Counted from the first letter of the stretch, positions 54,308 through 57,324 are shown. The stretch: 64,000 nt of DNA from Escherichia phage HK6 (PP724615.1); one strand, 5' to 3'. Program-made: numbers and translations. The notes: generated from the letters alone by a model not told the origin.

Positions 54308-54337
54308 ATTTATATAAATTAATGAGAGGGTTGCAAA

Positions 54338-54610
54338 GTGAAAAAGATAAATATAAGTACACTTAAACCTTTCCCATATATCGGACAGCCTCTTATACTT
54401 ATGTGGGAGGAGAAGATTAATGGAGAAAAGTATACTAAAATTAGAAGTGGGTATAAGCTGATTTCACTTCATTACGAAAAAGAAGTATTAACAGCTGAAA
54501 TATACTCTCCATTATCAGATAGGCTAGTAAAAACCACGTATTTGCATCTCTGCAAAAATTTTACATGGCACGGATCCACTAGACAGCCCACGTACTATGA
54601 GGCAGAATAA
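54338..54610 (+). CDS. Hypothetical protein, GTG start (90 aa)
   Basis: GAGAGGG RBS then GTG. Confidence 0.5.
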   Translation: MKKINISTLKPFPYIGQPLILMWEEKINGEKYTKIRSGYKLISLHYEKEVLTAEIYSPLSDRLVKTTYLHLCKNFTWHGSTRQPTYYEAE

Positions 54611-55582
54611 ATGACTAATGTAAAAGACTTTATTAAACGTTGCCAAGAAGCGTATTACCAGGGAATGTCTTTAATCTCTGACGAAGAATATGATCGTCTG
54701 ATTAAAAGATTTCCGTTAGAAGAAGAGATCGGGCCTAAGGGCGATATTCCACATCTGTATCGTATGTATTCTTTACAGAAAGTTTATTATAATCGTGGAG
54801 ATAAACCTCCATTTAACCCATTAGGTCAGGTAGAAACTGATAAGTTAGATGGTTGTGCGATTTCTCTGTTATATATTAATGGAGAATTTGTTCAAGCACT
54901 AACTCGTGGTAATGGTATTCTAGGGAATGATGTCACAAGCAACGTAAGATTGCTGAACATCCCTAAAAAGATTTCCCAAAAAGTACCTACTCAAATCACT
55001 GGTGAAGTTCTAATTACAAAAGAAGTAGAAAATAAACGTAACTTTGCCTCTGGTGCTATTAACCTCAAAGATAGTGATGATTTCGTACAACGTATCGGAG
55101 AAGGTGGTTTAATCTTCGTTGCATACGGTATCCAGTGTTCTGCTGAATCTGTAGGTATTACAGAAGCATATTTAAAAGATATGCTTTGGCTAGAGAATGA
55201 GGACTTCTTAACAGTTGTTAATGTGCGTTCCTTCTTTAAATGGATTCCGACGGACGGTAAAGTTGTTCGTATTAATGATAACAACAAATTCTTTCGTGAA
55301 GGCTGGACTAATAAATTTCCTCGTGGCGCATTCGCTATTAAAGAAGATGAAGAAGGCGAAATTACAACTCTTACTAAAGTTGAATGGCAGGTAGGGGCTT
55401 CTGGTAAAGTAACTCCAGTTGGTTATTTCGAACCGGTAATTATTGATGATGCTACAATTGTTAAGGCGACTCTTAATAACGTTGATTATATTAACTCTCT
55501 TGATCTAGAGATCGGTTGCCAGATTCGAGTAATTCGTGCTGGTGGTGTGATCCCGTGCATAGTAGAGCGAGTATACGATTAA
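54611..55582 (+). CDS. NAD-type DNA ligase, N-terminal part (adenylation and OB, 323 aa)
   Basis: LigA-like N-terminus YYQGMSLISDEEYDRL; adenylation lysine motif KLDG. Confidence 0.75.
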   Translation: MTNVKDFIKRCQEAYYQGMSLISDEEYDRLIKRFPLEEEIGPKGDIPHLYRMYSLQKVYYNRGDKPPFNPLGQVETDKLDGCAISLLYINGEFVQALTRGNGILGNDVTSNVRLLNIPKKISQKVPTQITGEVLITKEVENKRNFASGAINLKDSDDFVQRIGEGGLIFVAYGIQCSAESVGITEAYLKDMLWLENEDFLTVVNVRSFFKWIPTDGKVVRINDNNKFFREGWTNKFPRGAFAIKEDEEGEITTLTKVEWQVGASGKVTPVGYFEPVIIDDATIVKATLNNVDYINSLDLEIGCQIRVIRAGGVIPCIVERVYD

Positions 55583-55632
55583 TACATAACCCTTTGCTAC
55601 CCATCTACCATATCGGAATTATAAAGTGGTTA

Positions 55633-55661
55633 TTGACATTTTCGCCGCTTAGGTATATACT
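55633..55661 (+). promoter_or_regulatory. sigma70-like promoter (TTGACA, 17 bp, TATACT) inside the ligase split
   Basis: Perfect -35; shares TTGACATTTTCGC with the promoter at 26635. Confidence 0.55.
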
Positions 55662-55725
55662 ATTATCATTCAGTTGAGGGATAGAAAGTTATGGCGAGGG
55701 TAAGCAAAGTTAGTTAAAATTGTAG

Positions 55726-55754
55726 TTGCTAAATGCTTAAATACTTGCTATAAT
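55726..55754 (+). promoter_or_regulatory. Conserved early promoter (TTGCTA, 17 bp, TATAAT)
   Basis: Directly upstream of the second ligase ORF. Confidence 0.6.
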
Positions 55755-55784
55755 ATTTATATAAATTGATAAGGAAGAAATTTG

Positions 55785-56564
55785 ATGAAAATCGAAATTC
55801 CAACACAATGTCCCTCTTGTGGTTCTAAGCTAGATCTTGTCAACGGACAATTATTCTGTAGGAATAAGTCCAACTGTCCAGCGCAATCAAGTAAGTTAAT
55901 TGAGAACTTCTGTTCAAAAATGAAGTTAAAGGGCTTTGGCCCAAAAACTATTGAGAAGCTGGAGCTGACGAAGATTTCAGAACTATTTTACCTAACCGAA
56001 GAAGATTTGGTTAGAGCCGTGGGTAGCAAGGTTGCCGCTAAGTTAATTAGCGAATTAAATACTAAAGTTCGCGGAGGCATTGACTTTGGTTCAGTTCTCG
56101 GTTCTTTAGGAATCCCTCTAATTGGAGAGGTTGCAGCAAAGAAATTATCCCAAAATTGCACTAGCTTCCACGATGTGAAGGCTGACGGCAAGGCTGGAGA
56201 AAACTATAAAGCCTGGCTAAATTCCCCACAAGGCAAGGATGTTATCGAACTACCGTGGAAATTCTCAACTGGTATTAAGGGCACTAAAGCCGACATCATC
56301 ATTACAGATGAGTTAGTTGCCCAGCCAAATGGAATCGCGGTATGTATTACCGGATCTTTGCAAGATTTTGCAAATCGAACGGATGCAACAAACTATTTAG
56401 AGAGTCTAGGATATACGGTTAAGAAATCCGTTACCAAAGACGTCAAATACCTAATCTGTGAGGATGAATCAAAACGTTCTTCCTCATCTTATAAGAAAGC
56501 CGAAACGAATGGGATAGAAATCCTGTCGATTAAAGAACTATTGGAGAAAAATAATAATGTCTAA
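55785..56564 (+). CDS. NAD-type DNA ligase, C-terminal part (Zn finger, HhH, BRCT, 260 aa)
   Basis: Four-Cys zinc finger CPSCGSKL...CRNKSNCPAQ, HhH-like segments, BRCT-like C-terminus; ATG 8 nt after AAGGAAG. Confidence 0.75.
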   Translation: MKIEIPTQCPSCGSKLDLVNGQLFCRNKSNCPAQSSKLIENFCSKMKLKGFGPKTIEKLELTKISELFYLTEEDLVRAVGSKVAAKLISELNTKVRGGIDFGSVLGSLGIPLIGEVAAKKLSQNCTSFHDVKADGKAGENYKAWLNSPQGKDVIELPWKFSTGIKGTKADIIITDELVAQPNGIAVCITGSLQDFANRTDATNYLESLGYTVKKSVTKDVKYLICEDESKRSSSSYKKAETNGIEILSIKELLEKNNNV

Positions 56565-57324
56565 ACTGAACTGGAACGTAGAAGGTGTAACCGAGTCTCT
56601 GAAAGCAAAAGCCACTGCTCTGGGTGTTGCTGTAATCTCTCAAGAACAAGTAGCTGCTATCGCTGCTGAACTGGCTGCTGAAACTGGCAAAGATGTTACT
56701 GCTCGCTCTGTTGGCTCTAAACTGCGTAAAGAAGGTTTTGAAGTACAGAAAGCTAACGAAGTGCAGAAATCTCCGTGGACTCCTGAGCAGGAAGCTGAAC
56801 TGGTTGATTTCCTGAACGCTCATGCTGGTCAGTATACCTATGCTGAAATCGCTGCTGCTGTAGCTGGTGGTCAGTTCGGTGCTAAACAGGTACAGGGTAA
56901 GATCCTGAGTCTGGAAATGACCGCTTCTGTTAAACCAACTGAAAAAGCTGCTGCTGTTCGTTCCTTCACTCCGGATGAAGAAACTGATTTTGTTAATCAG
57001 GTTGTTGCTGGTGCTACTATTGAAGCTATCGCTGCTCACTTCGGTCGCAATATTAAGCAGATCCGTGGTAAAGCTCTGAGCCTGCTTCGTGAAGGTCGTA
57101 TTGCTGCTATGCCGGTACAGGAAACTTCAAGTGCTAAAACTCGTGAAGATCTGTTAGAAGGTCTAGATCTGGTTAACATGACTGTTGCTGAGATCGCTGA
57201 GAAAACCGGTAAGTCTGAGCGTGGTGTTAAATCTATGCTGTCTCGTCGTGGTCTGGTTGCTAAGGACTATGATGGTGCCGCTAAGCGTGCTAAACTGGAT
57301 GCAAAAGCTGCGGCTGCTGAATAA
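56557..57324 (+). CDS. Ala-rich protein with three internal HTH-like repeats (255 aa)
   Basis: Three related segments (TYAEIAAAVAGGQFGAKQVQGKILSL / TIEAIAAHFGRNIKQIRGKALSL / TVAEIAEKTGKSERGVKSMLSR); codon usage looks tuned for high expression. Confidence 0.65.
   Translation: MSKLNWNVEGVTESLKAKATALGVAVISQEQVAAIAAELAAETGKDVTARSVGSKLRKEGFEVQKANEVQKSPWTPEQEAELVDFLNAHAGQYTYAEIAAAVAGGQFGAKQVQGKILSLEMTASVKPTEKAAAVRSFTPDEETDFVNQVVAGATIEAIAAHFGRNIKQIRGKALSLLREGRIAAMPVQETSSAKTREDLLEGLDLVNMTVAEIAEKTGKSERGVKSMLSRRGLVAKDYDGAAKRAKLDAKAAAAE

What the first reader, a model, noticed from the sequence alone, without database searches (positions are those of the whole stretch)
54611..56564. NAD-type DNA ligase split into two ORFs with promoters in the 200-bp gap
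The first ORF carries the adenylation domain (KLDG) and ends at 55582; the second starts at 55785 and carries the zinc finger, HhH and BRCT-like parts. The gap holds two promoter-like elements (55633-55661 and 55726-55754). This is either a naturally two-subunit ligase or a gene interrupted by an inserted regulatory cassette.
Basis: partly seen in the sequence, partly recalled or inferred. Interest (0 to 1): 0.5.

Follow-up and report, generated by a model that had tools for sequence, protein, structure and literature searches.

The report
Phage T5's known two-gene DNA ligase
This is the split NAD-dependent DNA ligase (ligA and ligB) of a T5-like phage, with the two named T5 promoters P-K28b and P-K28a between the halves; it is real and conserved, but already annotated, published and structurally solved in a relative, so it is ordinary.

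Summary
ORF1 (54611-55582, 323 aa) carries domain Ia, the nucleotidyltransferase domain (K78 in KLDG) and the OB fold. ORF2 (55785-56564, 259 aa) carries a four-cysteine zinc finger, HhH and BRCT. They are collinear, contiguous halves of one LigA-type ligase, cut at the OB/Zn-finger boundary. On the full-length phage ligase profile, ORF1 covers positions 9-381 and ORF2 covers 388-654.

The window is a Tequintavirus (T5-like phage). Its 202-bp gap is identical to that of phage T5. The T5 reference record annotates ligA (T5.116), promoter P-K28b, promoter P-K28a and ligB (T5.117) exactly here.

The split occurs in every Demerecviridae lineage sampled (Escherichia, Salmonella, Klebsiella, Pectobacterium, Providencia, Vibrio and Aeromonas phages). 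The promoter hexamers are the most conserved columns of the spacer. A two-chain ligase from Providencia phage PR1 is in the PDB (9HU3/9I5I). The T5 split ligase has been in the literature since 2005.

New here only in detail: two Salmonella phages carry a GIY-YIG homing-endonuclease gene in this gap, and Vibrio phages carry small ORFs there.

Verdict: already known, low interest.

The parts
54611..55582 (+). [quoted passage not shown]
   Evidence: Pfam PF01653 and PF03120. phrog_3359 covers the full length at 3.6e-176, and phrog_3869 positions 9-381 are matched. It is 99% identical to T5 T5.116. PDB 9HU3_A matches at 6e-104.
55583..55784 (+). 202-bp intergenic spacer between the ligase halves. 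It has stop codons in all three frames, no terminator-like site and no Rfam match.
   Evidence: Stops in all frames, and ligB lies in frame +1 relative to ligA. No terminator-like site. No Rfam match at E<=1. Length is 202 bp in 28 of 29 close loci, and the variable-site fraction is 0.09 against 0.24 and 0.16 in the flanking coding DNA. Identical to T5.
55633..55661 (+). Core of promoter P-K28b (TTGACA, 17 bp, TATACT). The annotated T5 feature corresponds to window 55613-55687.
   Evidence: Promoter scan, 11/12. The T5 record AY543070 has the feature 'promoter P-K 28b' at 66366-66440. The -35 and -10 elements are invariant in six diverged phages.
55726..55754 (+). Core of promoter P-K28a (TTGCTA, 17 bp, TATAAT with TG extension). 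The annotated T5 feature corresponds to window 55706-55780.
   Evidence: Promoter scan, 10/12 plus TG. The T5 record has the feature 'promoter P-K 28a' at 66459-66533. The extended -10 (CTTG.TATA.T) is invariant in six diverged phages, about 31 bp upstream of the ligB ATG.
55771..55777 (+). Shine-Dalgarno-like AAGGAAG ahead of the ligB ATG
   Evidence: Read directly from the sequence. The GGA/GAGG-type element is retained in relatives.
55785..56564 (+). ligB: NAD-dependent DNA ligase subunit B (Cys4 zinc finger, HhH, BRCT), 259 aa
   Evidence: Pfam BRCT, HHH_2 and HHH_5. phrog_3498 covers the full length at 1.2e-136, and phrog_3869 positions 388-654 are matched. PDB 9HU3_B matches at 4.7e-81 and 2OWO residues 402-529 are matched. 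The T5.117 annotation is. Cys 9/12/25/31 are.
56557..57324 (+). D5 (DNA-binding/transcription factor) gene. Its ATG overlaps the end of ligB (ATGTCTAA). It is the first of the downstream replication genes served by the same promoters.
   Evidence: ORF list, phrog_323 D5-like at 1.5e-71, annotations in relatives.

Best explanation
This is the ligA-ligB locus of a T5-like phage (Tequintavirus, Demerecviridae). It encodes a LigA-type NAD+-dependent DNA ligase as two separate polypeptides, cut at the boundary between the OB fold and the zinc finger. Subunit A (Ia-NTase-OB) holds the NAD+-binding and adenylyl-transfer chemistry (K78). Subunit B (Zn-HhH-BRCT) supplies the DNA-binding module that a LigA needs to clamp a nick. 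The two are inferred to associate non-covalently into a ligase that seals nicks and Okazaki fragments during phage replication. The 202-bp spacer is an ordinary, strongly conserved intergenic region. It holds two tandem sigma-70 promoters, annotated in T5 as P-K28b and P-K28a. With no terminator after ligA, these add transcription onto ligB, D5, the DnaB-like helicase, the primase and the polymerase downstream. Shown here: domain content, collinearity, conservation of the split and of the promoters, and identity to the annotated T5 features. Inferred: heterodimer formation for this particular pair (by homology to PDB 9HU3), ligase activity, and promoter activity in vivo.
For: [quoted passage not shown] The T5 reference AY543070 annotates ligA T5.116, promoter P-K 28b, promoter P-K 28a and ligB T5.117 in this order. 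The window's spacer is identical to T5's. Collinearity holds against E. coli LigA 2OWO and against phrog_3869. Catalytic and structural motifs are present: K78 in KLDG, TGEV, DGKVV, FAIK, the domain Ia motifs AYY and ISDEEYD, and four Cys. PDB 9HU3/9I5I contains chain A (339 aa) and chain B (248 aa, 'DNA ligase subunit B'). They match ORF1 and ORF2 end to end at 6e-104 and 4.7e-81 and come from Providencia phage vB_PreS_PR1. All 120 best ORF1 homologues are N-terminal halves only. The split is seen in Sugarlandvirus, Mccorquodalevirinae, Ermolyevavirinae and Shenzhenvirus, whereas a non-Demerecviridae jumbo phage has a fused 669-aa ligase. [quoted passage not shown] A LigN truncated to Ia-NTase-OB adenylates itself but cannot ligate (PMC1684257). 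ligA AAU05253 and ligB AAU05254 are listed as subunits in PMC3632103.
Against: No biochemical assay of the T5 pair was found in the searchable library. The paper behind 9HU3 could not be located, so heterodimer activity rests on the PDB entry's composition and on homology. The Pfam HhH hit in ORF2 is slightly below the curated cut-off. The count of promoter-like sites in the region is not above chance, so promoter function rests on conservation and on the T5 record's annotation, not on data generated here.
Confidence: 0.93

Rival explanations
1. The split is the scar of a mobile-element invasion ('genes in pieces'). A free-standing homing endonuclease or similar cassette once landed at the OB/Zn linker of a fused ligase, and the promoters came with it or evolved afterwards. 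This concerns origin and is compatible with the present two-subunit function.
For: Salmonella phages SP3 and vB_Sen_SG_WM_RUS_R2 carry a GIY-YIG ORF (Pfam 1.1e-5) directly after the ligA stop, inside this gap. The last ~65 residues of SP3's LigA carry 12 clustered substitutions that are absent from its closest HEG-less relatives. Vibrio phages have one or two extra small ORFs between ligA and ligB. Non-Demerecviridae phages have a fused ligase.
Against: The endonuclease is found in only 3 of 50,697 records, which represent 2 phages. It sits upstream of the retained promoter pair, so it looks like a recent secondary insertion into an existing spacer. The split and the promoters are shared by all Demerecviridae lineages sampled, so the origin event is ancient and left no endonuclease in this window. 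The only ORF of 40 aa or more that touches the gap is a 53-aa mechanical ORF overlapping the ligA end.
Confidence: 0.15
2. The two ORFs are remnants of a ligase gene inactivated by a stop or insertion, i.e. a pseudogene, and the phage relies on host LigA.
For: A split essential enzyme is unusual. The NTase domain is about 70 residues shorter than in E. coli LigA, and Pfam matches only part of it.
Against: Both halves are intact, with all catalytic motifs. They are conserved from 46% to 100% identity across about 950 or more phage records. Each has its own PHROG family. ligB has its own SD and ATG. The homologous pair was produced and solved as a complex.
Confidence: 0.02
3. The halves are joined into one polypeptide by recoding or splicing (readthrough, frameshift, intron, or split intein).
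For: None beyond the adjacency of the two ORFs.
Against: The spacer has 5-7 stop codons in each of the three frames, and ligB is in a different frame. There is no Rfam intron or other RNA family. Pfam finds no intein-like domain. The PDB homologue consists of two separate chains that begin and end where these ORFs do.
Confidence: 0.01

Closest known systems
Bacteriophage T5 ligA (T5.116) / ligB (T5.117) with promoters P-K28b and P-K28a (GenBank AY543070; Wang et al. 2005, Virology 332:45, as cited in PMC1684257)
   Same: Same genes, same order, same split point and the same 202-bp spacer, which is identical over the 231 bases aligned. Subunit A is 99% identical and subunit B 96%.
   Different: A few amino-acid substitutions. 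In addition, this window has an extra ~277-bp segment with a 90-aa ORF (54338-54610) just upstream of ligA, which T5 lacks.
Providencia phage vB_PreS_PR1 two-chain NAD+ ligase, PDB 9HU3 / 9I5I
   Same: Same two-subunit architecture. Chain A matches ORF1 residues 4-323 and chain B matches ORF2 residues 1-255, with the chain termini at the same positions.
   Different: It is a diverged orthologue from another Demerecviridae genus. Its NTase domain has small insertions, and its subunit B is 11 residues shorter.
Bacterial single-chain LigA (E. coli, PDB 2OWO)
   Same: Same domain order, Ia-NTase-OB-Zn-HhH-BRCT. K78 aligns with K115 and the four zinc-finger cysteines are present. The mechanism is presumably the same.
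   Different: It is one 671-aa polypeptide. Here the chain is cut between the equivalents of residues ~393 and ~400, and the NTase domain is about 70 residues shorter.
Phage 'genes in pieces' created by homing endonucleases, e.g. Aeromonas phage Aeh1 nrdA split by mobE and T4 topoisomerase gp39/gp60 (cited from memory, not checked here)
   Same: An essential replication enzyme is encoded as two adjacent ORFs that reassemble. In two Salmonella relatives a GIY-YIG gene sits in the gap.
   Different: This window and most relatives have no endonuclease in the gap. The gap holds promoters instead, and the split is family-wide rather than sporadic.

Membership tests
NAD+-dependent DNA ligase (LigA family) | N-terminal domain Ia with the NMN-binding YY...D..YD motif | tested here: met
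   ORF1 residues 14-28, AYYQGMSLISDEEYD, align with the T. filiformis and E. coli domain Ia motif (domain-1 alignments).
NAD+-dependent DNA ligase (LigA family) | Nucleotidyltransferase domain with the motif I lysine (KxDG) and motifs III, IV and V | tested here: met
   PF01653 at 3.5e-23. K78 of KLDG aligns with E. coli K115. TGEV, DGKVV and FAIK align with motifs III, IV and V.
NAD+-dependent DNA ligase (LigA family) | OB-fold domain | tested here: met
   PF03120 at 3.6e-22, 78.5 bits against a cut-off of 32.9.
NAD+-dependent DNA ligase (LigA family) | Cys4 zinc finger, HhH domain and BRCT domain | tested here: met
   Cys 9/12/25/31. ORF2 3-122 matches 2OWO 402-529, and ORF2 3-251 matches 1DGS 400-653. 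BRCT scores 33.3 bits against a cut-off of 21.3. HHH_2 scores 24.5 bits, slightly below its cut-off of 27.
NAD+-dependent DNA ligase (LigA family) | All domains on a single polypeptide | tested here: not met
   There is a TAA stop at 55580-55582, then a 202-bp spacer with stops in all frames, and ligB is in another frame with its own SD and ATG.
NAD+-dependent DNA ligase (LigA family) | NAD+-dependent nick-sealing activity | not testable with these tools
   This needs purified proteins.
T5-type split ligase LigA/LigB of Demerecviridae | Two adjacent co-oriented genes cut at the OB/Zn-finger boundary | tested here: met
   On phrog_3869, ORF1 covers positions 9-381 and ORF2 covers 388-654. The dedicated half-families phrog_3359 and phrog_3498 are matched end to end.
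T5-type split ligase LigA/LigB of Demerecviridae | Orthology to T5.116 and T5.117 in the conserved D3-ligA-ligB-D5-dnaB-primase-polymerase context | tested here: met
   99% and 96% identity to T5. The gene order is the same as in T5_ev212 and T5.
T5-type split ligase LigA/LigB of Demerecviridae | Tandem promoters P-K28b and P-K28a in the spacer | tested here: met
   The spacer is identical to T5's, where these features are annotated. The hexamers are conserved in distant relatives.
T5-type split ligase LigA/LigB of Demerecviridae | The subunits form a complex | not testable with these tools
   This is inferred only from PDB 9HU3/9I5I, which holds both homologous chains.
Gene split by a resident homing endonuclease (genes in pieces) | An endonuclease ORF lies between the two halves | tested here: not met
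   No such ORF lies in 55583-55784. One is present only in Salmonella phages SP3 and vB_Sen_SG_WM_RUS_R2.
Intron- or intein-interrupted gene | A self-splicing RNA or protein element spans the interruption | tested here: not met
   No Rfam family matches at E<=1. Pfam finds no intein domains. The homologue is solved as two separate chains.

The most novel reading that the evidence does not exclude
The split may be actively maintained rather than a frozen accident. Placing the strong promoter pair inside the ligase coding unit would decouple ligB and the downstream D5, helicase, primase and polymerase genes from ligA in dose and timing. It would also make the OB/Zn spacer a recurrent landing pad for mobile ORFs (GIY-YIG in SP3-type phages, small ORFs in Vibrio phages). 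That would point to an ancient homing-endonuclease 'genes in pieces' origin, and possibly to an independent role for subunit B.
Probability: 0.15. Interest if true: 0.35.

Novelty: already known. Interest (0 to 1): 0.1.

Why it matters
It matters little as a discovery. The split T5 ligase has been annotated since the 2005 genome paper, the promoters carry names from the classic T5 promoter work, and a homologous two-chain enzyme is in the PDB. It does show that a LigA can work as two polypeptides cut at the OB/Zn-finger hinge. The comparative details found here could guide a small study of why the split persists: the promoter pair is conserved across the whole family, and mobile ORFs sporadically occupy the spacer.

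Tried and rejected
(1) I looked for a structured RNA, intron or riboswitch in the gap. Rfam at E<=1 over 55300-56000 returned nothing.

(2) I tested recoding. All three frames of the gap have several stop codons, and ligB is in a different frame.

(3) phA11 and phC11 showed an extra ~193 bp in the megablast hit, which I suspected was an insertion in the gap. It is a 201-bp ORF upstream of ligA instead, and their gap is 202 bp.

(4) Literature searches failed for PDB code 9HU3 (only UniProt-like strings), for the phage name with 'ligase', for Providencia phage ligase structure, for the promoter sequences as text strings and for 'K28a/K28b' (unrelated hits). The primary papers for the structure and for the P-K28 promoters were therefore not read. 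My attribution of the P-K28 names to the Gentz & Bujard promoter series is from memory.

(5) The supplement of Klimuk et al. 2020 (PMC7472727), which aligns T5 early and late promoters, is held only as an image. I could not check whether P-K28a/b are in it. That paper states that early T5 promoters carry ATATT at the discriminator. P-K28a reads TATAATATT, which fits the early class, but this is inference.

(6) Pfam found nothing convincing for the small ORFs between ligA and ligB in Vibrio phages.

(7) I did not use structure prediction or the large representative-protein search, because the question was already settled.

Full report
**What is in the sequence**

On the + strand, ORF1 runs 54611-55582 (323 aa, ATG start, TAA stop). 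ORF2 runs 55785-56564 (259 aa from the ATG). The mechanical ORF list starts ORF2 one codon earlier, at TTG 55782. However, an AAGGAAG Shine-Dalgarno-like element sits 7-9 bases before the ATG.

Pfam places the NAD-dependent ligase adenylation domain (3.5e-23) and the NAD-ligase OB domain (3.6e-22) in ORF1. In ORF2 it places BRCT (5.7e-8, above cut-off) and helix-hairpin-helix matches (HHH_2 3.1e-5, slightly below cut-off).

ORF1 carries these motifs:
- KLDG at residue 78, which aligns with E. coli LigA K115.
- TGEV at residue 130.
- DGKVV, within the string TDGKVV found at residue 214.
- FAIK at residue 241.
- The domain Ia motif AYY...ISDEEYD at residues 14-28.

ORF2 opens with four cysteines at positions 9, 12, 25 and 31.

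Against E. coli LigA (2OWO, 671 aa), ORF1 residues 214-320 align to 284-390 and ORF2 residues 3-122 align to 402-529. Against T. filiformis ligase (1DGS), ORF2 residues 3-251 align to 400-653.

Against the full-length phage ligase profile phrog_3869 (656 positions), ORF1 1-321 covers positions 9-381 and ORF2 2-257 covers 388-654. Each half also matches its own dedicated family end to end: phrog_3359 at 3.6e-176 and phrog_3498 at 1.2e-136.

The two ORFs are therefore contiguous halves of one LigA-type ligase, cut at the hinge between the OB fold and the zinc finger. At most about six linker positions are missing.

**The gap**

- 55633-55661: TTGACA, 17 bp, TATACT (11 of 12).
- 55726-55754: TTGCTA, 17 bp, TATAAT with a TG extension (10 of 12).

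No terminator-like site lies in the gap. The number of promoter-like sites in the 4-kb region is not above chance (9 against 8.6 +/- 2.9), so the scan alone proves nothing.

The gap has 5-7 stop codons in each frame, and ligB is in frame +1 relative to ligA. No Rfam family matches at E<=1. Readthrough, frameshifting and intron splicing are therefore excluded as ways of making one protein.

**Where the window comes from**

Megablast of 54300-56900 hits 515 phage records, and 428 of them cover at least 80% of the query. The best is 97.9% identical (Salmonella phage SP01). [quoted passage not shown]

The T5 reference record AY543070 annotates these features in order: ligA (T5.116, 65364-66335), 'promoter P-K 28b' (66366-66440), 'promoter P-K 28a' (66459-66533), ligB (T5.117, 66538-67317) and D5. 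With the offset fixed by the ligA start, these promoter features correspond to window 55613-55687 and 55706-55780. Each contains one of the two scanned sites.

The window and T5 are identical over the 231 aligned bases spanning the gap.

**Conservation**

In 29 close loci that hold both halves, the gap is 202 bp in 28. Its variable-site fraction is 0.09, lower than the last 300 bases of ligA (0.24) and the first 300 bases of ligB (0.16). None of the four hexamers varies.

The broad protein search with ORF1 gives 1531 hits at E<=1e-5. Of the 120 best, 119 are 307-337 aa and one is a 240-aa fragment. All carry only the adenylation and OB domains, down to 46% identity. They come from Escherichia, Salmonella, Yersinia, Erwinia, Serratia, Pectobacterium and Vibrio phages.

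tblastn with ORF2 finds 958 phage records. The sampled annotated records show the same ligA-ligB-D5-helicase-primase order:

| Phage | Lineage | Between ligA and ligB |
|---|---|---|
| Klebsiella phage VAC35 | Sugarlandvirus | 199-bp gap |
| Pectobacterium phage DU_PP_V | Mccorquodalevirinae | 189-bp gap |
| Aeromonas phage AhSzq-1 | Shenzhenvirus | 178-bp gap |
| Vibrio phage Wyman | Ermolyevavirinae | two small ORFs, then ~150 bp |
| Vibrio phage 234P1 | Demerecviridae | one small ORF, then ~150 bp |

A non-Demerecviridae jumbo Vibrio phage has a fused 669-aa ligase.

In each of the five distant relatives a promoter pair sits upstream of ligB, about 117-127 bp and about 30-31 bp before the ATG. 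In Vibrio phage 234P1 only the -10 region of the upstream promoter lies within the spacer. In a six-way alignment of the window, T5 and four of these relatives (234P1 was not included), the invariant columns are the -35 TTGAC, the -10 TATACT and the extended -10 CTTG.TATA.T of the second promoter. This is the real evidence that the promoters function. It is independent of the T5 annotation.

**What is already known**

[quoted passage not shown] It also shows that an archaeal LigN truncated to Ia-NTase-OB adenylates itself normally but is inactive in ligation. That supports the view that subunit A needs subunit B.
- PMC3632103 lists ligA (AAU05253) and ligB (AAU05254) as ligase subunits.
- PDB entries 9HU3 and 9I5I hold a 339-aa chain 'DNA ligase (NAD(+))' and a 248-aa chain 'DNA ligase subunit B'. 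They match ORF1 and ORF2 end to end at 6e-104 and 4.7e-81. The chain A sequence is 100% identical to Providencia phage vB_PreS_PR1, another Demerecviridae member.
- I could not find the paper for that structure in the searchable library.
- Klimuk et al. 2020 report that T5 early promoters carry ATATT at the discriminator. P-K28a reads TATAATATT, which fits the early class. This is my inference, not a reported mapping.

**Mechanism, with status of each step**

- Shown: two genes encode complementary, collinear halves with all catalytic and DNA-binding motifs. The split and the promoter pair are conserved across the family.
- Inferred from homology: the two proteins associate (PDB 9HU3). Subunit A performs NAD+-dependent self-adenylation and AMP transfer. 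Subunit B provides the Zn-HhH-BRCT DNA clamp, so together they seal nicks.
- Inferred from anatomy: there is no terminator after ligA, so ligB is transcribed from the promoter upstream of ligA plus P-K28b and P-K28a. These two promoters also feed D5, whose ATG overlaps the end of ligB in ATGTCTAA, and the replication genes downstream.

**Side findings bearing on the 'inserted cassette' idea**

One close locus, L023 (Salmonella phage SP3), has a 794-bp gap. A ~210-aa ORF with a GIY-YIG catalytic domain (Pfam 1.1e-5) is inserted directly after the ligA stop, upstream of the retained promoter pair. The same ORF sits at the same place in Salmonella phage vB_Sen_SG_WM_RUS_R2. It occurs nowhere else in 50,697 phage records.

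The last ~65 residues of SP3's LigA carry 12 clustered substitutions that are absent from its closest endonuclease-free relatives. This is what homing-associated co-conversion or target-site divergence would produce.

This shows that the spacer is used as a landing site by mobile genes. Because the endonuclease is rare and lies upstream of the ancient promoter pair, it is a secondary insertion and not the cause of the split.

**Verdict**

The feature is the known ligA/ligB split ligase of T5-like phages with the known promoters P-K28b and P-K28a.

- Novelty: already known.
- Interest: low (0.1).
- Most novel reading left open: the split may be maintained for expression control, or may derive from an ancient homing-endonuclease event. 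I rate this about 0.15 probable and of modest interest.

Noticed in passing
window 54329-54605 (ORF 54338-54610, +): A ~277-bp segment with a 90-aa ORF (phrog_35018, unknown function) lies between the T5-annotated promoter upstream of ligA and the ligA start. It is absent from T5 itself and present in only 2 of 29 close loci (T5_ev212, SP01). Salmonella phage phA11 has a different 201-bp ORF at the same spot. This junction appears to be a hot spot for small accessory ORFs.
   Followed up: partly
L023 3965-4606 (Salmonella phage SP3) and L040 1501-2142 (Salmonella phage vB_Sen_SG_WM_RUS_R2): A GIY-YIG homing-endonuclease-like ORF is inserted directly after the ligA stop, upstream of the retained promoter pair. 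It is found in only 3 records, representing 2 phages, of the whole phage collection.
   Followed up: yes
L023 3750-3972 (3' end of ligA in Salmonella phage SP3): Twelve amino-acid substitutions are clustered in the last ~65 residues of LigA next to the GIY-YIG insertion. They are absent from the closest endonuclease-free relatives L020-L022. This suggests a homing co-conversion tract or a cleavage-resistant target variant.
   Followed up: partly
window 56557-56564: The D5 start codon (ATG 56557) overlaps the end of ligB (TAA 56562-56564) in the string ATGTCTAA. This suggests translational coupling of ligB and D5.
   Followed up: no
L034 1452-2344 (Vibrio phage Wyman); L036 2051-2347 (Vibrio phage 234P1); L033 783-1346 (Pectobacterium phage DU_PP_V): Vibrio Demerecviridae carry one or two small ORFs between ligA and ligB. 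One of them has a weak DprA-like Pfam hit (E 0.008). Pectobacterium phage DU_PP_V has an annotated DprA-like gene immediately upstream of ligA instead.
   Followed up: partly
L029 3001-4954 (Salmonella phage S124-like contig): Identity is mosaic: LigA is only 83% identical to the window's, while LigB is 94.6% identical, with the same 202-bp gap. This suggests a recombination break point near the spacer.
   Followed up: no
window 55691-55717: A tiny ORF (ATG GCG AGG GTA AGC AAA GTT AGT TAA, 8 codons) lies downstream of P-K28b and is preceded by GAGGGA. The peptide is not conserved in Klebsiella or Pectobacterium relatives. The GAGG-like element after the -10 recurs after both promoters in several relatives, so it probably belongs to the conserved transcribed region of T5-type promoters and is not a gene.
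   Followed up: partly
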